From a virus (Duplodnaviria > Heunggongvirae > Uroviricota > Caudoviricetes): DNA of 4,795 nt. A model generated the notes under the pieces. That model searched no databases. It was not told where the DNA came from and saw nothing but the letters and a program-made list of their open reading frames with translations. Shown here piece after piece: positions 1 through 4,693 of the stretch (position 1 is the first letter of the stretch; every line of letters begins with the position of its first letter). The position numbers and the translations under genes are program-made. The stretch is taken from the IMG/VR virus record IMGVR_UViG_3300039313_000010; one strand, 5' to 3'.

Positions 1-530
1 CTTGAGCCATCAGGCGCGTCAGCAGGAGCATCAATGGCATAGCGCGGTGCCAGATTCGGTAAGCCAACAGCCTCCTGGAGTTTCTGACAGGCACCAAGCA
101 CAGATGAGTTAGACAGGTTTAACTCCCGACGCATAAAGTCCAGCAGAATCACACCAGCCTGCATCTTGTCAGCAGCCTGTCCGGATAATTTTTCCGGTGC
201 GCTGGTTACCATGTCGAAAGTGCGGATCACCTTCAGATGGAATGACGGGCTGATCCACATTGCATAGGCATACACCAGTTCTTTGCAGACATACGTCCCC
301 TGGTTATTTCCGCCATTAATAACGCTAACTGGTTGATTCTTTTCCAGAGGCGGAATTCCACCCTCGGTGAAAAGTTGTTCAATCAGTTCACAGGTTTGCT
401 TATTGGAGAGCCAGTATTTCGGGCGGTTTTTTTGTTCTCCCCCGGCAGCCCGATGCAGATCGTTCAGGCTGTAACGCCCATAAGCATCACGACGAACTTC
501 AATACCATCAATGACCATCAGATTATTCAT
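1..530 (-). CDS. KilA-N domain protein (phage antirepressor-like); N-terminal 176 codons only, ORF runs off the window start
   Basis: Own minus-strand translation from ATG at 530-528 is open to position 1: MNNLMVIDGIEVRRDAYGRYSLNDLHRAAGGEQKNRPKYWLSNKQTCELIEQLFTEGGIPPLEKNQPVSVINGGNNQGTYVCKELVYAYAMWISPSFHLKVIRTFD... RBS-like AGAGGAG lies 7 nt upstream of the ATG, 17 nt after the rusA stop. Absent from the ORF track because there is no stop in the window. KilA-N assignment is from remembered family pattern, not a search. Confidence 0.7.
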   Translation of the reverse strand, partial: MNNLMVIDGIEVRRDAYGRYSLNDLHRAAGGEQKNRPKYWLSNKQTCELIEQLFTEGGIPPLEKNQPVSVINGGNNQGTYVCKELVYAYAMWISPSFHLKVIRTFDMVTSAPEKLSGQAADKMQAGVILLDFMRRELNLSNSSVLGACQKLQEAVGLPNLAPRYAIDAPADAPDGS

Positions 531-549
531 ACTTCGTTTCTCCTCTTGA

Positions 550-939
550 TCAGGCGGCTGCACCCGCCGTTTTCTCGTACTTACTGATAGTGATCTCGAC
601 CTTCCCTTCCGGGATAACCGGTCCCCACTCCACCAGCATTCTTTTCACCTGACTGTCGTCTTCCCACACACCCGCGTGGGTCAGGGCGTCAAACAGCGCC
701 TTGTTATAGTTGTCCAGATCGCGGATCCGGTTATCCGGTGGAAACAACACGATCTCCACTGCAGCAGGTGCCGACGTTGGTTTCGGCAGACGACGTAACT
801 GCTCAACTATTGCTGCGCACGCCGCGCTCTGGAATTTTCGCCCCGCCGTGCTTATCAGGCTCTTACCAGCAAACGCCCCTTTGTTGGGGTGTCGCCAGTA
901 CGTGTTCACGCTGGGCGGAAAAGGCAGAATAAGCTTCAT
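550..939 (-). CDS. rusA: Crossover junction endodeoxyribonuclease RusA (Holliday junction resolvase)
   Basis: 129-aa ORF with the motifs LPFPPSVNTYWRH, IRDLDNYNKALFDALTHAGVWEDDSQV and GKVEITI, which match E. coli RusA as I remember it. Its ATG (939-937) overlaps the upstream gene's TGA (938-936) as ATGA. Position among nin-like genes of a lambdoid prophage is typical. Confidence 0.9.
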   Translation of the reverse strand: MKLILPFPPSVNTYWRHPNKGAFAGKSLISTAGRKFQSAACAAIVEQLRRLPKPTSAPAAVEIVLFPPDNRIRDLDNYNKALFDALTHAGVWEDDSQVKRMLVEWGPVIPEGKVEITISKYEKTAGAAA

Positions 940-1262
940 ACTTTCAGGCCCCTCTCATGTAACCAGTGGGCTGCACGCAGCCTGGCGTTTTCCTCACCGG
1001 CAAGCAGTGAGCGGATAATCCCGACCGCCTCGCTGTCGTCGTCCTTCACCGCGGTATGAAGCGTTATCCCCCGGGCCACGCCACGCTTTATCGTGATGAC
1101 GCCTTTTTTCTCCAGAGCACGAAGATGCTCCACCGCTGCATTCACCGAACGGTATCCCAGCATGGTTGCCACCTCCTGATTGGTTGGTGGGAAGCCACGT
1201 TCTTTCTGATAAGAAATCAGCATATCCAGCACCTGCTGCTGGCATTGAGTTAACGTCGTCAT
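936..1262 (-). CDS. Stand-alone LexA-like N-terminal DNA-binding domain protein, 108 aa, no S24 peptidase domain
   Basis: MTTLTQCQQQVLDMLISYQKERGFPPTNQEVATMLGYRSVNAAVEHLRALEKKGVITIKRGVARGITL aligns along its length with the E. coli LexA N-terminal domain ([66 protein letters not shown], from memory). The ORF stops about 40 aa after the winged helix; no Ala-Gly cleavage site or Ser/Lys catalytic region follows. Start chosen at ATG 1262-1260, which overlaps the upstream stop as TAATG; the track's in-frame ATG at 1295 is the alternative. Confidence 0.75.
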   Translation of the reverse strand: MTTLTQCQQQVLDMLISYQKERGFPPTNQEVATMLGYRSVNAAVEHLRALEKKGVITIKRGVARGITLHTAVKDDDSEAVGIIRSLLAGEENARLRAAHWLHERGLKV

Positions 1263-1744
1263 TAAGCCCCCACGTAATTCCCTGACAGATACCACTCTTC
1301 ACCCGATGCAGCGCGCTTGCTGCTTTTCCGTAAGCACCGCTCACGACGCGCCAGAAAATTGTTTCGTTCTGGCTGGGAGTGGCTTTCACGGAATGCCGCC
1401 ATCCACACGGTTGCAGCACGACGAAATAAGCCCCTGGACTCCAGTTCTTCCGCCTGGCGGGCTAGGCACAAAATCACCCGCGGGTCGTTAGTGCCGACAT
1501 AGAAATTGCGCACAGGTCTGGTTTCACGAACTGGTTGTGGTTCCTGCGCTCTCTCAGTCAGGCGCGGGAAATGTCTGCGTGTATCTCCTTCACAACGGTG
1601 AGCCACACGCCCACTCTGACGTAACTTGCTTGCTGACTGCAGAACTCGCTGCCGTGAGTAACCAGCAAAAGCATCCGCAATGTCTCCGGAAGTACACCCC
1701 GGATGGGCTTCAATGAATTTCTGAACGTCATTTAACAGACTCAT
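1262..1744 (-). CDS. Hypothetical protein with N-terminal winged-helix-like region and C-terminal PerC-like motif
   Basis: ORF 1262..1750 in the track. Preferred start is ATG 1744-1742 (MSLLNDVQ...), preceded by AGGGGG with a 5-nt spacer; the GTG at 1750 overlapping the upstream TGA is the alternative. C-terminal segment LESRGLFRRAATVWMAAFRESHSQPERNNFLARRERCL resembles the PerC/Pch signature (G-x-W-R-R-A-A-x-x-W ... R-R-x-x-C) as I recall it. Family call is from memory. Confidence 0.6.
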   Translation of the reverse strand: MSLLNDVQKFIEAHPGCTSGDIADAFAGYSRQRVLQSASKLRQSGRVAHRCEGDTRRHFPRLTERAQEPQPVRETRPVRNFYVGTNDPRVILCLARQAEELESRGLFRRAATVWMAAFRESHSQPERNNFLARRERCLRKSSKRAASGEEWYLSGNYVGA

Positions 1745-1746
1745 GA

Positions 1747-2688
1747 TCACCCCCTGAATCCTGCCGGGATCTGGCTGTAGTCCACGTTGTCGTAACTGGC
1801 TTTGAAGTACGGGTCTTCACGTTTTTCTGTGTGCGTGCTGACGGACGGCGATAAGCGCAGGGAAAGCTCATCCCATTTTTCCCGCAACTTCGACGGGCTG
1901 AGCACGTTACGGCACCAGAACGGATCGCGGCTGACGCGGCTGTACATCTCGCAGATTTGTTTGTGAGTACGACCATCCTGCACACACATCAGGCGAATTT
2001 CGTTTGCCCAGGCTGTCCAGTTAGGTTCTTTGGGACGAACCACCTCGCCGTCACATTCGGCGGCCTGCTCGTACAGGGCGATGATTTTTTTCCAGAGCCA
2101 CTGTGCGCAGGTCAAATCATCCTGCGTTCCCCACTGGCGCTTTATAGGGCTGAATACAACCGCATCAGGATGGCGAGTTAAAAACTCCTGTTCAGCCGTC
2201 TGCGTGTCCGGTTGCGAAGCGTCCGGACGAGAAGGTTTTTTATCTGACGGATCATGTTTTGATTTTACTGACGGATCCCCGCCAGATTCTGACGGGTGAA
2301 AACCCGCTTTTTTGCCAGATTTCGACGCATCAAATTTTGACGGGTCAGATTTTGATGCGTCAGATTTTGACGGGTCAGAATCTGACAGTTGAGAAAATGC
2401 CGCTGCCTGAAGCTTCGCAACGTTAAGCTGATAAACATTCGACGCATTGCGGTTACCCTGGCGACGCGCCCTACGCGTTAACCAGCCTTCTGCTTCCAGC
2501 CGTGCGATAGCCGTTCTGACGGTACTCATCCCCGCGCCAATCTGGCGGGCAATGGTTTCAATTGATGGCCAGCACACACCTTCGTCATTACTGAAATCAG
2601 CCAGGCGGGCCATAATTGCCACGCTGGATAATTTCATGCCTGATGCAGCGCAACCATCCCATACATAGCCGGTTAATTTAGTGCTCAT
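1747..2688 (-). CDS. Phage replication initiation protein (lambda O-like): N-terminal HTH domain, iteron-encoded repeat linker, C-terminal domain
   Basis: 313-aa ORF with RBS GAGG 6 nt before ATG 2688. N-terminal segment (SSVAIMARLADFSNDEGVCWPSIETIARQIGAGMSTVRTAIARLEAEGWL) is HTH-like. The central peptide repeat SDPSK/SDASK/SDPSK/FDASK is encoded by 15-bp tandem DNA repeats, the same layout as the lambda O gene carrying ori-lambda iterons. Sits where O sits relative to cro and cII. Confidence 0.85.
   Translation of the reverse strand: MSTKLTGYVWDGCAASGMKLSSVAIMARLADFSNDEGVCWPSIETIARQIGAGMSTVRTAIARLEAEGWLTRRARRQGNRNASNVYQLNVAKLQAAAFSQLSDSDPSKSDASKSDPSKFDASKSGKKAGFHPSESGGDPSVKSKHDPSDKKPSRPDASQPDTQTAEQEFLTRHPDAVVFSPIKRQWGTQDDLTCAQWLWKKIIALYEQAAECDGEVVRPKEPNWTAWANEIRLMCVQDGRTHKQICEMYSRVSRDPFWCRNVLSPSKLREKWDELSLRLSPSVSTHTEKREDPYFKASYDNVDYSQIPAGFRG
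2242..2391. repeat. Iteron array, candidate phage replication origin inside the initiator gene
   Basis: Five exactly phased 15-bp units at 2317, 2332, 2347, 2362 and 2377 (agatttcgacgcatc / aaattttgacgggtc / agattttgatgcgtc / agattttgacgggtc / agaatctgacagttg), plus three degenerate copies at 2242-2298 containing tctgacgg or actgacgg. Each unit has a short GTCA...TGAC dyad. Moderately AT-rich flank at 2231-2270. Confidence 0.65.
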
Positions 2689-2697
2689 GACCGACCT

Positions 2698-3036
2698 CTA
2701 TTTCCCTGAATTTACGACGAAACTGTTCGAGCGGGCTGAAGCACTCATGCTCATAGCCTTCGCGGAGGTAGATAACACGTTGTGTTTCCGGTTCCCAACG
2801 AATGACTCTGACGGGCACTCCGTAGTGATCTTTGAACCAGCGGTTAACTTGTCGCAAAGGACTGTCTCCTTCTGCCGGTTGAAATCACCCACAGCCCACT
2901 CAGCAAAGCTGTGGGTTACAATTTCCCTGTCACCTGGTACATTCACTGCATAGCAATATTCCACCTTCGCTTTTCCACCCGGTACAGGAAGCGCAATCAG
3001 TTGCGAGCGACGGTAGTGTGTTGTTAAACTGTTCAT
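2698..3036 (-). CDS. Hypothetical protein, 112 aa, between the cII-position gene and the replication initiator
   Basis: ATG 3036-3034 overlaps the upstream TGA as ATGA; the stop at 2698-2700 lies 10 nt before the RBS and ATG of the initiator gene, so it fits the operon. No family recognised. A plus-strand ORF (2681..2953) is open antisense to it, so coding strand is not fully certain. Confidence 0.5.
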
Positions 3037-3590
3037 GCGTTAGTTTCTCCACAACCAGAAGCAATCGACGCCACGACGCCCGGAGCTGCACACTCGCGGG
3101 CGTCATTACTTTCTGAAACACAAAAGATTTTGTAGACCAGTGCTGCATGCTCCTGCAGCTTCGAAATTGAGAGGTACAGCTCGTCGTTAATTGCTGTCTT
3201 CTCATGCGGTTCCACTACACCGTCTTCGATTGCTGAACGAATCTGTTTTGAATAACTGCCGATCTGTTCAATGACTTCCAGCAGACGCTGGTTAATATCG
3301 GCGTTGTCCACATCCTCGACGTCAGGAAGAGACACAAATACGCCATTTGCAGACTGCGCCACAGCATCAGCAATGAAGTGAGTGCCACCAGCACGCTGTA
3401 AAACCATTGCCCATCCCAGCGGGAAAATCTGATCGCCATCGGCACGAAGGCGGTTAAATAATGCGTTCTCTGTTACGTCCAGCCAGTCAGCAGCTTCAGC
3501 GTACCCCCCCGGCAACGCTGCGATAGTTTTTCTGACAGCTTTCACGTACCACTCAGGCTGTTTTTCTATTTTCCAGTGATGCTTACCCAC
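3033..3590 (-). CDS. Early regulatory-region protein in the cII position (about 185 aa), function uncertain
   Basis: Track ORF 3033..3701. Start trimmed to GTG 3590-3588, which has a strong RBS (GAGGAG, 6-nt spacer) and begins 28 nt after the cro-like stop. The upstream ATGs at 3701 and 3668 have no RBS and would overlap the cro-like gene by 50-80 nt. Resemblance to YdaT-like prophage proteins is a guess from position only. Confidence 0.65.
3075..3115 (+). terminator. Candidate intrinsic terminator hairpin on the plus strand (possible oop-like antisense RNA 3' end)
   Basis: 8-bp GC-rich stem GACGCCCG (3075-3082) pairing with CGGGCGTC (3097-3104), 14-nt loop, then ATTACTTTCTG (6 of 11 T). Only the plus-strand transcript gets a U-rich tail. 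Lies inside the 3' part of the minus-strand cII-position gene. The T-tract is imperfect. Confidence 0.3.
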
Positions 3591-3618
3591 GGTTAACTCC
3601 TCGTTTCTGTGGTTACGT

Positions 3619-3882
3619 TTACGCAGCTGAACCGCTAACTTTTGAATAGCACTCAGGTAATCCATCATTTGGATTGGGGTAAATATCAGGACGCAGTTCA
3701 TGAGGGGTCACGGACCAGTTTCCCAACTCACAAAGTTGTAAAACCCGTTCTGACGGGACTTGATTGTTAATTACCCAATTAGCGACGGATTGAGTGGACT
3801 TAAAACCAAAGTGACGGGCTACTTCAGATAAAGATTTTCCCGCAGCTTTTACTGCTTTCTCTGTGTAGTTTTGAGATGACAT
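3619..3882 (-). CDS. Cro-like HTH DNA-binding protein (Cro/YdaS-type), first gene of the rightward-equivalent early operon
   Basis: 87-aa ORF with an HTH segment (KSLSEVARHFGFKSTQSVANWV) followed by VPSERVLQLCELGNWSVTPHELRPDIY. RBS GGAGAAAGG lies just upstream of ATG 3882. Divergent from the repressor gene. Confidence 0.8.
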   Translation of the reverse strand: MSSQNYTEKAVKAAGKSLSEVARHFGFKSTQSVANWVINNQVPSERVLQLCELGNWSVTPHELRPDIYPNPNDGLPECYSKVSGSAA

Positions 3883-3912: not shown

Positions 3913-3929
3913 TGCTACTTAAAATAGCA
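3913..3929. promoter_or_regulatory. Operator-like 17-bp dyad TGCTAC-TTAAA-ATAGCA
   Basis: 5-bp inverted arms TGCTA/TAGCA around cttaaaa. Shares CTAC at positions 3-6 and TAG at 13-15 with the sites at 3936 and 3981. Contains a -10-like hexamer. Confidence 0.45.
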
Positions 3930-3935
3930 GAATAC

Positions 3936-3952
3936 AACTACTTAAAATAGAA
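3936..3952. promoter_or_regulatory. Operator-like 17-bp site AACTACTTAAAATAGAA, weaker dyad
   Basis: Its 13-bp core CTACTTAAAATAG (3938-3950) is an exact direct repeat of 3915-3927, 23 bp away. Immediately precedes ATG 3953. Confidence 0.45.
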
Positions 3953-4693
3953 ATGACTAGCGTATGTGATGCGAGTAACCTTCTACCTATGGTAGAAGAA
4001 CAGAAGTATCCAGATTTCGCCAAGAGACTAAACGAGCTAATGACAAACAAGGGAATTTCTGTCACCCAACTCAAAAGTCTTGTGGGCGTTACATATGAAA
4101 TGGCGCGGCGATACACAATCGGCGCTGCGAAGCCTCGTGCCTCTGTCATGAATAAACTTGCATTGGCTCTGGGGGTATCAGCTTCATATTTAGAATATGG
4201 TGTTGGCGAGAGAGAAGGATGTAAGGAAATGGCAAGCATCCCCAATCCAACAAAACCCGATGTATACAGGATAGAAGTTTTGGATCTTAGCGTTAGCGCA
4301 GGACCTGGAACCTATATGCTTTCAGACTATGTTGATGTGCTCTACGCCATTGAGTTCACAACAGAGCATGCCCGTTCTCTTTTCGGTAATCGTTCTCAAG
4401 ATGATATTAAAGTTATGACTGTAAATGGCGACAGCATGTCCCCTACTCTAGTTTCCGGAGATCGACTGTTTGTCGACATTTCTGTTCGCAACTTCCAAAC
4501 TGATGGTGTTTACTCTTTCGTTTATGGTAAGACGTTCCACGTTAAACGTCTACAAATGCAAGGCAACAAACTCGCCGTTCTTTCGGATAATCCAGCCTAT
4601 GAGAAATGGTACATTGATGAGAAGTCCCAAGATCAACTTTATGTTATGGGCAAAGCATTGATACACGAATCAATTAAATACAACCGGCTTTAG
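3953..4693 (+). CDS. Phage cI-like repressor: N-terminal XRE-type HTH, C-terminal S24 (LexA/CI-type) self-cleaving peptidase domain
   Basis: 246-aa ORF. HTH segment FAKRLNELMTNKGISVTQLKSLVGVTYEMARRY. Candidate Ala-Gly cleavage site in LSVSAGPG. Catalytic Ser motif in MTVNGDSMSPTLVSGDRLFVD and Lys motif in FHVKRLQMQGNKLAVL. No RBS before ATG 3953, which fits a leaderless PRM-type transcript; ATG 3989 (MVEEQKYPDF...) is the alternative start. Confidence 0.9.
   Translation: MTSVCDASNLLPMVEEQKYPDFAKRLNELMTNKGISVTQLKSLVGVTYEMARRYTIGAAKPRASVMNKLALALGVSASYLEYGVGEREGCKEMASIPNPTKPDVYRIEVLDLSVSAGPGTYMLSDYVDVLYAIEFTTEHARSLFGNRSQDDIKVMTVNGDSMSPTLVSGDRLFVDISVRNFQTDGVYSFVYGKTFHVKRLQMQGNKLAVLSDNPAYEKWYIDEKSQDQLYVMGKALIHESIKYNRL
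3981..3997. promoter_or_regulatory. Perfect 17-bp palindrome TTCTACC-TAT-GGTAGAA centred on the in-frame ATG 3989 of the repressor gene
   Basis: 7-bp perfect inverted arms, read directly. Shares the CTAC...TAG half-sites with the two intergenic sites. Its centre is 45 bp from the centre of the 3936-3952 site. Confidence 0.4.

What the first reader, a model, noticed from the sequence alone, without database searches (positions are those of the whole stretch)
2242..2391. 15-bp iteron array inside the replication initiator gene: candidate origin with lambda-like architecture but a different repeat unit
Five exactly phased 15-bp repeats (consensus close to AGATTTTGACGGGTC) plus three degenerate upstream copies lie in the middle of the O-like gene, where they encode a pentapeptide-repeat linker (SDPSK/SDASK...). 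Lambda places its origin iterons within O in the same way, but with about 19-bp units, so this looks like a distinct iteron specificity. The array pins down the likely replication origin and the initiator's binding site.
Basis: partly seen in the sequence, partly recalled or inferred. Interest (0 to 1): 0.55.

Follow-up and report, generated by a model that had tools for sequence, protein, structure and literature searches.

The report
Replication-origin repeats inside a prophage initiator gene
A run of 15-base repeats inside a prophage replication-initiator gene is conserved as DNA rather than as protein, so it is very probably the phage's replication origin; it is built like phage lambda's but has its own repeat, and is an ordinary new example of a known design.

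Summary
Five phased 15-bp units lie at 2316-2390. A sixth full site lies at 2283-2297, and two further half-site copies lie at 2234-2277. All sit in the interdomain linker of a 313-aa initiator gene (1747-2688, minus strand) of an SfIV/SfII-like lambdoid prophage.

The protein has an HTH_36 winged-helix N-domain, not lambda's Phage_rep_O. Its C-domain is 38% identical to that of lambda O.

Across 79 homologues from many Enterobacterales genera the repeats are conserved as DNA:
- The Ser codon in the D-x-S repeat is TCA in 86% of cases, against 17% elsewhere in the same genes.
- Identical residues share the same codon 85% of the time in the linker block, against 39% in the N-domain. This held in all 2,237 pairs compared.
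- The middle residue of the peptide repeat varies freely.

The repeat block travels with the N-domain across three C-domain classes. Relatives with the same C-domain but another N-domain carry different repeats (12, 22, 23 and about 19 bp) at the same position.

This is the lambda/P22/L pattern of an origin inside the initiator gene, so I rate it a new member of a known kind. Binding and origin activity are inferred, not tested. No P-like helicase loader lies in the window downstream of the initiator. Interest 0.3.

The parts
1747..2688 (-). Replication initiator gene (313 aa): N-terminal winged-helix domain, linker, and a lambda-O-like C-terminal domain
   Evidence: ORF listed. It is 98-99% nt identical to the 'replication protein / primosomal protein / DNA replication protein O' genes of Shigella phages SfIV and SfII and several E. 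coli phages. It matches PHROG 391 'replication initiation O-like' at E 3e-134.
2398..2688 (-). Coding region of the N-terminal DNA-binding domain (aa 1-97). This domain is the presumed iteron reader
   Evidence: Pfam HTH_36 matches aa 23-70 at E 4e-11. Weaker matches are to GntR, MarR, DnaD_N and RepC-N winged-helix families. The domain is 59-99% identical in 79 homologues from other Enterobacterales.
2316..2390 (.). Five head-to-tail 15-bp iterons. In gene orientation the unit is TCTGAC-NN-GTCA(A/G)AA, with the dyad core TCA(G/A)A-A-TCTGA at each junction. They encode S-D-x-S-K
   Evidence: In homologues the core occurs at 19.9 per kb in the linker against 0.25 per kb outside it. The modal count is 5 copies per locus and the dominant spacing is 15 bp. 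Close relatives differ by +1 or +2 whole units.
2283..2297 (.). Sixth, isolated full site (CAGATTCTGACGGGT on the plus strand; CCGTCAGAATCTGG in gene orientation)
   Evidence: It is an exact match to the core. It lies in the F(H/D)P(S/P)ESGG block, whose nucleotides, including third codon positions, are almost invariant in 76 homologues.
2234..2277 (.). Two GATCCGTCAG half-site copies 24 bp apart, each followed by an A-rich run (GATCCGTCAGTAAAATCAAAACAT / GATCCGTCAGATAAAAAACC in gene orientation). GATC sites are at 2250 and 2274
   Evidence: The codons GAT-CCR-TCA-GTA-AAW-TCA are conserved at the nucleotide level, with 2.0 bits at the third positions of GAT, TCA and GTA.
2232..2271 (.). The most A+T-rich 40-mer of the gene (70% A+T). 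It is the candidate unwinding tract on the C-domain side of the iterons. 2232 is also the mosaic junction with the C-domain module
   Evidence: Homology to mEp460_4F5, which has the same C-domain but another N-domain, starts at gene nt 457, which is window 2232. The corresponding lambda-type tract reads about 77% A+T (my count on the sequence).
1858..2193 (-). Coding region of the C-terminal domain (aa 166-277), homologous to the C-terminal domain of lambda O
   Evidence: tblastn gives 38.4% identity to O of lambda, 434, 933W and others at E about 5e-17. BLASTP against the phage 434 O protein gives E 2e-25.

Best explanation
The segment 2232-2391 is a cis-acting DNA element embedded in the linker-coding part of the phage's replication initiator gene. 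It is most probably the phage origin of replication.

Shown:
- The initiator has an N-terminal HTH_36 winged-helix domain and a lambda-O-like C-terminal domain.
- The DNA between them carries six dyad-symmetric sites (core TCA(G/A)A-A-TCTGA). Five are packed at exactly 15 bp.
- Next come two GATC-containing half-sites in an A-rich tract.
- This DNA is under purifying selection at the nucleotide level that is stronger than the selection on the encoded peptide.
- It is inherited as one module with the N-domain.

Inferred by analogy with lambda O and ori-lambda:
- After prophage induction the gene is transcribed leftward from the early promoter.
- The N-domains of the newly made initiator, probably as dimers, bind the sites and assemble a nucleoprotein complex.
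- The adjacent A-rich tract (2232-2271) is destabilised.
- The C-domain brings in the replicative helicase.

Because no P-like, DnaC-like or DnaB-like gene lies in the window downstream of the initiator, the helicase must come either through host loading factors or through an unidentified phage partner. That step is unknown. The S-D-x-S-K peptide repeat is largely a by-product of the DNA sites lying in a tolerant, probably disordered, linker.
For: 1. The repeats are real and non-random.

2. Position. They lie between the N-domain and the lambda-O-like C-domain, as do the annotated gpO iterons in a lambda-type O gene.

3. Constraint at the DNA level, measured in 79 homologues of 59-99% N-domain identity:
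- The Ser codon of [DE]xS is TCA in 432 of 503 cases, against 244 of 1,454 elsewhere in the same genes (Fisher p 5e-175).
- The x residue takes 16 different amino acids, yet its third base is a purine in 84% of cases.
- Third codon positions in the conserved block reach about 2.0 bits, against a mean of 0.54 bits at invariant residues of the N-domain.
- Identical residues use the identical codon 85.3% of the time in the block, against 38.6% in the N-domain. The block was higher in 2,237 of 2,237 pairs.
- Yersinia phage YeP3 encodes D-G-S (GACGGGTCA) where others encode D-P-S (GACCCGTCA). The dyad is kept while the amino acid changes.

4. Module linkage. The same N-domain plus repeat block is fused to three unrelated C-domain classes: 18 lambda-O-like, 57 Phg_2220_C-type and 7 EKP1-type.

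5. Co-variation. With the same C-domain, other N-domains carry other repeats at the same place:
- mEp460_4F5, 23 bp
- Klebsiella phage Mulock, 12 bp
- Providencia phage PSTRCR_117lys, 22 bp
- lambda/434, 18-19 bp
.

6. The array changes by whole 15-bp units among near-identical prophages.

7. Literature. Lambda, P22 and phage L each have distinct iterons within the O/18 coding region (PMC8022706). The lambda origin lies in the middle of O and consists of iterons plus an AT-rich tract (PMC7466680).
Against: - There is no experimental evidence of binding or of origin activity for this module. The SfIV genome paper does not describe an origin.
- The A+T-rich tract is modest: 70% over 40 bp, against about 77% in the lambda type.
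- No DnaA boxes were found.
- No helicase-loader gene lies in the window downstream of the initiator, so the lambda mechanism cannot be transferred in full.
- A 15-bp centre-to-centre spacing puts successive sites on nearly opposite faces of the helix, unlike lambda's spacing of roughly two helical turns. The geometry of any complex is therefore unknown.
- Sequence alone cannot settle which register (TCTGAC-NN-GTCAGA or GTCAGA-A-TCTGAC) is the unit of binding.
- Nucleotide-level conservation shows a DNA function. It does not by itself show that the function is initiation.
Confidence: 0.8

Rival explanations
1. The repeats matter only as protein. On this view a pentapeptide-repeat (SDxSK) flexible linker is selected, and the DNA periodicity is a by-product of recent duplication or slippage.
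For: The array is in frame and encodes a low-complexity Ser/Asp/Lys-rich peptide. Unit number varies among close relatives, as expected for slippage. The linker has no predicted secondary structure in a low-confidence model.
Against: - Synonymous positions are far more conserved than in the well-conserved N-domain of the same genes.
- The central residue varies over 16 amino acids while the flanking nucleotides stay fixed.
- Nucleotides are kept when the amino acid changes: S/L/Q all keep the final A, P/S keep CA, and DPS changes to DGS by a dyad-preserving CC-to-GG swap.
- Recent duplication cannot explain conservation across genera from Escherichia to Proteus and Rahnella.
Confidence: 0.03
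2. The array is a binding site for the initiator, but its main role is regulatory. It could act in autorepression, as a transcriptional roadblock, or by titration or handcuffing to limit initiation. DNA unwinding would then start elsewhere in the phage genome.
For: Iterons of plasmid replicons have such control roles (established knowledge; reviewed in PMC4980987). The A-rich tract next to the array is only moderately A+T-rich. The window's richest A+T segment is instead the immunity-region operator zone at 3920-3959.
Against: - The position and order of parts (sites, then an A-rich tract, then the C-domain) match the lambda origin.
- The A-rich block is itself conserved at the nucleotide level.
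- No second cluster of the motif exists in the window or in the 3.3-kb loci of the homologues: 0.25 per kb outside against 19.9 per kb inside.
- A regulatory role and an origin role are not mutually exclusive.
Confidence: 0.1
3. The conserved DNA is the target of some other factor than the initiator's N-domain. Candidates are a host protein such as SeqA (through Dam methylation at the GATC pair) or another phage protein. Alternatively it acts as a recombination or packaging signal.
For: Two GATC sites 24 bp apart are invariant in the 76 aligned homologues. Several relatives carry a Dam-type methylase gene directly downstream. The single-stranded region folds unusually well, with z = -4.9.
Against: - The motif block is linked to the N-domain whatever lies downstream: a PerC-like gene, a methylase or a toprim protein.
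- It is replaced by a different repeat when the N-domain is replaced.
- GATC is not enriched in the window overall.
- The good fold is expected from dyad-symmetric sites.
Confidence: 0.05

Closest known systems
Phage lambda origin (ori-lambda) inside gene O, and lambda O protein
   Same: The origin elements lie in the middle of the initiator gene, in the DNA that encodes the linker between an N-terminal DNA-binding domain and a C-terminal domain. Dyad-symmetric repeated sites are followed, on the C-domain side, by an A-rich tract. The C-domain is homologous (38% identity). The gene sits in the early rightward operon after the cro/cII-like genes (PMC7466680).
   Different: - The N-domain belongs to another Pfam family: HTH_36 rather than Phage_rep_O.
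- The unit is 15 bp with core CA(G/A)AATCTG, not 18-19 bp TCCCTCAAAACGAGGGA.
- The sites abut one another at 15 bp rather than about 20-24 bp centre to centre.
- There are six sites plus two half-sites instead of four.
- The A-rich tract is weaker and carries two conserved GATC sites.
- No P gene follows.
P22 gene 18 and phage L gene 18 intragenic repeats
   Same: These are lambdoid initiators that each carry their own repeat family inside the coding region. P22 has four repeats of about 20 bp. Phage L has six imprecise 11-bp repeats, which were proposed from sequence to be its origin (PMC8022706).
   Different: The repeat sequence and the initiator N-domain differ. Those phages have a DnaB-type helicase gene (gene 12) next to the initiator, which is absent here.
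Other mosaics with the same lambda-O-like C-domain (mEp460_4F5, Klebsiella phage Mulock, Providencia phage PSTRCR_117lys)
   Same: The architecture is the same, with repeat arrays directly upstream of the C-domain coding region. mEp460_4F5 is 96% nt identical to the window over the C-domain half.
   Different: They have different N-domains and different repeats of 23, 12 and 22 bp. This is the co-variation that ties the repeats to the N-domain.
Iteron-type plasmid replicons (e.g. RepA/pi/TrfA systems)
   Same: They have repeated initiator-binding sites next to an A+T-rich region, and the initiators carry winged-helix DNA-binding domains (PMC4980987; established knowledge).
   Different: Plasmid iterons are typically 17-22 bp direct repeats in helical phase. 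They lie in an intergenic oriV and are read by monomers with two winged-helix domains. Here the sites are dyad-symmetric, 15 bp apart and inside the gene. No plasmid Rep family matched above its Pfam threshold; the only such match was RepC-N at 17.6 bits against a cut-off of 24.4.

Membership tests
Lambda-type intragenic origin (iterons plus A+T-rich tract inside the initiator gene) | An array of at least four repeated sites within the initiator's coding region, between its DNA-binding and C-terminal domains | tested here: met
   There are six full sites and two half-sites at gene nt 298-455 (aa 100-152). The N-domain covers aa 1-97 and the C-domain aa 166-277. The annotated gpO iterons of a lambda-type O gene lie at nt 349-433.
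Lambda-type intragenic origin (iterons plus A+T-rich tract inside the initiator gene) | Sites have internal dyad symmetry, consistent with binding by a dimer | tested here: met
   The arms TCAGA / TCTGA flank a central A. Alternatively the arms are TCTGAC / GTCAGA around NN. The binding stoichiometry itself was not tested.
Lambda-type intragenic origin (iterons plus A+T-rich tract inside the initiator gene) | An A+T-rich unwinding tract next to the iterons on the C-domain side | tested here: inconclusive
   The gene's most A+T-rich 40-mer (2232-2271, 70%) is in the expected place and is A-rich on the coding strand, as in lambda. However, it is interrupted by two GC-containing half-sites and is weaker than lambda's (about 77%).
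Lambda-type intragenic origin (iterons plus A+T-rich tract inside the initiator gene) | Repeats are specific to, and inherited with, the initiator's N-terminal domain | tested here: met
   The same block is fused to three C-domain classes. Different N-domains on the same C-domain carry different repeats.
Lambda-type intragenic origin (iterons plus A+T-rich tract inside the initiator gene) | The DNA element is selected as DNA and is not merely a consequence of the peptide | tested here: met
   Shown by codon-level tests in 79 homologues.
Lambda-type intragenic origin (iterons plus A+T-rich tract inside the initiator gene) | The initiator binds the repeats, and the fragment supports initiator-dependent replication | not testable with these tools
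   This needs gel-shift or footprinting and a mini-replicon assay. No published test was found.
Lambda O protein family (Pfam Phage_rep_O initiators working with P) | N-terminal Phage_rep_O (PF04492) DNA-binding domain | tested here: not met
   The window protein matches HTH_36 (PF13730, E 4e-11) and has no PF04492 match. The phage 434 O protein matches PF04492 at E 6e-36 in the same kind of search.
Lambda O protein family (Pfam Phage_rep_O initiators working with P) | C-terminal domain homologous to that of lambda O | tested here: met
   38.4% identity over aa 166-277 at E about 5e-17. BLASTP gives E 2e-25.
Lambda O protein family (Pfam Phage_rep_O initiators working with P) | A P-type helicase-loader gene immediately downstream | tested here: not met
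   The downstream gene (1262-1750) is PerC-like and shows no similarity to P (E 0.22). In SfIV the six annotated genes downstream of the initiator include no helicase or loader by name; two of them are hypothetical proteins.
Plasmid iteron replicons (Rep_3/RepA-like) | A Rep initiator of a plasmid Rep family, and direct repeats of about 17-22 bp in helical phase in an intergenic oriV | tested here: not met
   No plasmid Rep family matched above threshold. The repeats are 15 bp, dyad-symmetric and intragenic. Plasmid-collection hits are prophages in large replicons or an excised e14 circle, not independent replicons.

The most novel reading that the evidence does not exclude
The module may work differently from lambda in its later steps. 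A run of abutting, alternately oriented half-sites every 7-8 bp (15-bp units) could be coated by a continuous initiator filament rather than wrapped like an O-some. The strictly conserved pair of GATC sites in the A-rich tract could make opening depend on Dam methylation, as in oriC and P1; several relatives carry a methylase gene next door. The lambda-O-like C-domain would recruit the host helicase without any P-type loader. Together these would make a P-independent, methylation-gated variant of the lambdoid origin.
Probability: 0.15. Interest if true: 0.5.

Novelty: new member of a known kind. Interest (0 to 1): 0.3.

Why it matters
The finding places the probable origin of a very common enterobacterial prophage replication module. 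Parts of the window match 3,579 of 5,426 complete E. coli genomes, and 182 genomes carry nearly all of it. The module is that of the Shigella serotype-converting phages SfII and SfIV, and the initiator's first 79 residues survive in an e14-like element. The report also gives the candidate recognition sequence of an HTH_36-type initiator.

It is a clear case of a coding sequence whose synonymous sites are fixed by an overlapping DNA signal, while the peptide it encodes drifts. That is a useful caution for codon-based selection analyses and for recoding or synthetic-phage work.

The apparent lack of a helicase loader makes the module a simple system for asking how an O-type C-domain recruits DnaB. 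None of this changes the accepted picture of lambdoid replication.

Tried and rejected
- Structure prediction. AlphaFold2 on the single sequence gave mean pLDDT 43. That is too poor for fold searches, so none was run. I judged the large protein-database searches not worth their cost for this question and did not use them.
- Sequence search of the PDB. It gave only weak MarR-family matches to the helix-turn-helix region (E about 0.008).
- Plasmid collection. I looked for an independent replicon built on this initiator. The hits were prophages within very large records, an excised e14 circle (OR902851.1) and a 16-kb prophage fragment. None is informative.
- DnaA boxes. Matches were at chance level and none lies in the element.
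- GATC enrichment in the window. None found.
- Rfam. No match.
- Antisense terminator-like hairpin at 2293-2306. Its stem is not kept in the homologues (sequences), so I treat it as chance.
- Literature. The Stx-phage 'Eru' replication-region paper concerns other modules and does not mention iterons. The SfIV genome paper does not describe an origin. The SfV genome paper is not held. Searches for the e14 and CPS-53 gene names gave nothing relevant.
- Clustering of C-domains. Single-linkage clustering merged classes. I replaced it with assignment to three reference C-domains.
Full report
**What the window is.** The 4,795 bases are the early-right region of a lambdoid prophage. It is closely related (98-99% nt over the initiator gene) to Shigella phages SfIV and SfII and to several E. 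coli phages.

Reading right to left on the minus strand:

| Coordinates | Strand | Gene |
|---|---|---|
| 3953-4693 | + | cI-type repressor with an S24 peptidase domain |
| 3619-3882 | - | YdaS/Cro-like gene |
| 3033-3701 | - | YmfL/CII-like gene |
| 2698-3036 | - | small protein of unknown function |
| 1747-2688 | - | 313-aa initiator |
| 1262-1750 | - | PerC-like protein |
| 936-1295 | - | protein with a LexA-type DNA-binding domain |
| 550-939 | - | RusA |
| 1-531 | - | start of a KilA-N protein |

Parts of the window match 3,579 of 5,426 complete E. coli genomes, and 182 genomes carry nearly all of it.

Tandem Repeats Finder reports a period-15 array at 2316-2379 with consensus CAGATTTTGACGGGT. 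The repeat finder puts units in register at 2316, 2331, 2346, 2361 and 2376 and finds degenerate copies between 2245 and 2297.

The motif TGAYSSRTCA occurs 11 times against 1.9 expected, with seven copies clustered at 2245-2377. The core CARAWTCTG marks six positions in the array: 2283, 2316, 2331, 2346, 2361 and 2376. It gives 16 strand-hits against 4.9 expected, and no shuffle reached that number.

In the gene's orientation the array reads TCA GAT TCT GAC CCG TCA AAA TCT GAC GCA TCA AAA TCT GAC CCG TCA AAA TTT GAT GCG TCG AAA TCT GGC. It encodes S-D-x-S-K repeats. Next come GGT TTT CAC CCG TCA GAA TCT GGC GGG and then two copies of GAT CCG TCA G followed by A-rich sequence.

**The protein.** The N-terminal 100 residues match Pfam HTH_36, with weaker matches to GntR, MarR, DnaD_N and RepC-N winged-helix families. 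There is no Phage_rep_O match. The O protein of phage 434 gives that match at E 6e-36.

Residues 166-277 are 38% identical to the C-terminal domain of lambda O and its relatives. The protein is therefore O-like in its C-domain only.

The repeats fill gene nt 298-455, between the two domains. In the phage 434 record, whose O gene is of lambda type, the four gpO-binding iterons are annotated at nt 349-433 of O. An A-rich tract follows them.

I collected 79 homologues of the N-domain from one-genome-per-species contigs (59-99% identity; Escherichia, Klebsiella, Yersinia, Rahnella, Pantoea, Proteus, Providencia and others). I also collected 80 near-identical viral contigs.

- **Peptide variation.** Within the linker the middle residue of D-x-S takes 16 different amino acids. 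The flanking nucleotides stay fixed.
- **Ser codon.** It is TCA in 432 of 503 cases, against 244 of 1,454 elsewhere in the same genes. The third base of the x codon is a purine in 84% of cases.
- **Third positions.** In a codon-anchored alignment of the block F(D/H)P(P/S)ESGGDPSV(N/K)S..DPS, the third positions of TTT, GAT, TCA and GTA carry 2.0 bits. Nucleotides persist even where the amino acid changes (TCA/TTA/CAA; CCA/TCA). Third positions of invariant residues in the N-domain average 0.54 bits.
- **Control for relatedness.** I compared the two regions within the same pairs of genes. Identical residues use the identical codon 85.3% of the time in the linker block and 38.6% in the N-domain. 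The linker was higher in all 2,237 pairs.
- **YeP3.** Yersinia phage YeP3 encodes D-G-S (GACGGGTCA) where others encode D-P-S (GACCCGTCA). The dyad is kept and the residue changes.

The DNA is the selected object and the peptide is largely a passenger.

**What the conserved unit is.** Unbiased k-mer counts in the linkers give CAAAATCTG and CAGAATCTG as the most enriched 9-mers. CAGAATCTG is present in 73 of 79 loci and is essentially absent from the flanks.

Anchored on this core, the sites occur at 19.9 per kb inside the linker against 0.25 per kb outside. The modal number is five per locus (range 0-10; two loci have none). Spacings are 15 bp (207 cases), 48, 30 and 33 bp.

The core is a dyad, TCA(G/A)A-A-TCTGA. 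In a 15-bp tandem array it alternates with the second dyad, TCTGAC-NN-GTCAGA. Sequence alone cannot say which is the unit of binding.

The isolated, most conserved site (YCAGAATCTGG) and the Providencia arrays keep TCARAATCTG but lose GAC. Both favour the first register.

Among near-identical prophages the gene exists in 313-, 318- and 323-residue forms that differ by whole 15-bp units.

**Linkage to the N-domain.** The N-domain plus repeat block is joined to three unrelated C-domain classes:
- lambda-O-like: 18 sequences, including the window
- Phg_2220_C type: 57 sequences, as in Citrobacter phage phiNP
- a third type: 7 sequences, as in EKP1 and Proteus prophages

Conversely, mEp460_4F5 is 96% nt identical to the window across the C-domain half, up to window position about 2232. 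It has a different N-domain and five 23-bp repeats in the same place, followed by an A-rich tract.

Klebsiella phage Mulock has 12-bp repeats there and Providencia phage PSTRCR_117lys has 22-bp repeats. Lambda and 434 have their 18-19-bp iterons. So five N-domain types carry five repeat types at one position. This is the modular pattern long described for lambdoid phages. A recent genome paper states it explicitly for lambda, P22 and phage L (PMC8022706). The lambda arrangement is summarised in PMC7466680.

**Mechanism.**

*Shown:*
- the domain architecture;
- the site array;
- selection on the array at the DNA level;
- inheritance of the array as one module with the N-domain.

*Inferred by analogy with lambda:*
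- The N-domain binds the sites, probably as dimers given the dyads.
- The resulting complex destabilises the adjacent A-rich tract (2232-2271; 70% A+T, the richest 40-mer in the gene).
- The C-domain recruits the helicase.

*Unknown:* how the helicase arrives. The next gene is PerC-like and unrelated to P. None of the genes annotated downstream of the initiator in SfIV is named as a helicase or loader. In full-length or N-domain relatives from Klebsiella, Citrobacter and Yersinia a methylase gene lies immediately, or one gene, downstream of the initiator.

**Differences from lambda to keep in mind.**
- The 15-bp packing puts neighbouring sites on nearly opposite helix faces.
- The A-rich tract is weaker.
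- Two GATC sites within it are invariant in the homologues.
- There are no DnaA boxes.

**Rivals.**
- A purely peptide-level explanation is excluded for practical purposes by the codon data.
- The array could be mainly regulatory, with unwinding elsewhere. This cannot be excluded without experiments. It is disfavoured because the order of parts matches lambda, the A-rich block is itself conserved, and no second motif cluster exists.
- Binding by another factor is disfavoured by the strict linkage to the N-domain and the lack of any constant neighbouring gene.

**Verdict.** It is a new member of a known kind: a lambdoid intragenic origin with its own iteron and an HTH_36 reader domain. I found no paper describing this origin, but a specialist would expect it. 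The nucleotide-over-peptide conservation is unusually clean, and the loader-less arrangement is a reasonable experimental lead. Interest 0.3.

Noticed in passing
window 550-1750 and 1-531 (minus strand): No helicase or helicase-loader gene lies in the window downstream of the initiator. The downstream genes are a PerC-like protein (1262-1750), a LexA-DNA-binding-domain protein (936-1295), RusA (550-939) and a KilA-N protein (1-531, cut by the window edge). The lambda-O-like C-domain therefore has no visible P partner. BLASTP of the PerC-like protein against P gives E 0.22.
   Followed up: partly
window 2250-2253 and 2274-2277; loci L002, L003, L004, L167: The first of the two GATC sites, which lie 24 bp apart in the A-rich part of the element, is invariant in all 76 aligned homologues (the D codon is always GAT, followed by CC); the second is highly conserved but not invariant. 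Several relatives carry a Dam-type adenine methylase gene within one or two genes downstream of the initiator. This suggests a possible methylation link, as at oriC and P1 oriR, but GATC is not enriched in the window overall.
   Followed up: partly
window 3915-3927 and 3938-3950: An exact 13-bp direct repeat, CTACTTAAAATAG, occurs twice, 23 bp apart. It lies in the 78% A+T divergent region between the repressor gene and the cro-like gene. These are probably operator sites of the immunity switch.
   Followed up: no
window 3033-3701 versus 3619-3882 (minus strand): The 222-aa YmfL/CII-like ORF overlaps the cro-like ORF by 83 bases. The SfIV counterpart is annotated at only 552 nt, and the Pfam and PHROG matches begin at about residue 40-54. 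The true start is therefore probably an internal codon.
   Followed up: no
window 2293-2315 (plus strand): A terminator-like hairpin with a T-run (CGGGTGAAAACCCG CTTTTTTGCC) lies antisense to the initiator gene, between the tandem array and the sixth site. The stem is not preserved in the Klebsiella, Citrobacter or Yersinia homologues, so it is probably fortuitous.
   Followed up: partly
L060 (E. coli CP178308.1) and L170 (OR902851.1): The first 79 residues of this initiator (97% identical) are fused to an unrelated sequence in one E. coli chromosome. I read this as the e14-type deletion product (my own inference, not tested). A 15-kb 'plasmid' record carrying icd, mcrA and invertase genes looks like an excised e14 circle rather than a plasmid.
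   Followed up: partly
L102 (IMGVR_UViG_2531839147_000009): One near-identical relative has a frameshifted initiator of 145 aa. The reading frame is lost at the A-run (GGCAAAAAAGCG) directly after the tandem array, so this homopolymer may be a slippage hotspot that inactivates the gene.
   Followed up: no
L005 (Elizabethkingia phage EKP1), L014 (Vagococcus sp.), L036 (Chryseobacterium sp.), L041 (Martelella alba): Enterobacterial-type copies of this module (61-88% identity in the N-domain) sit in records attributed to distant taxa. Host misassignment or contamination seems more likely than real transfer.
   Followed up: no
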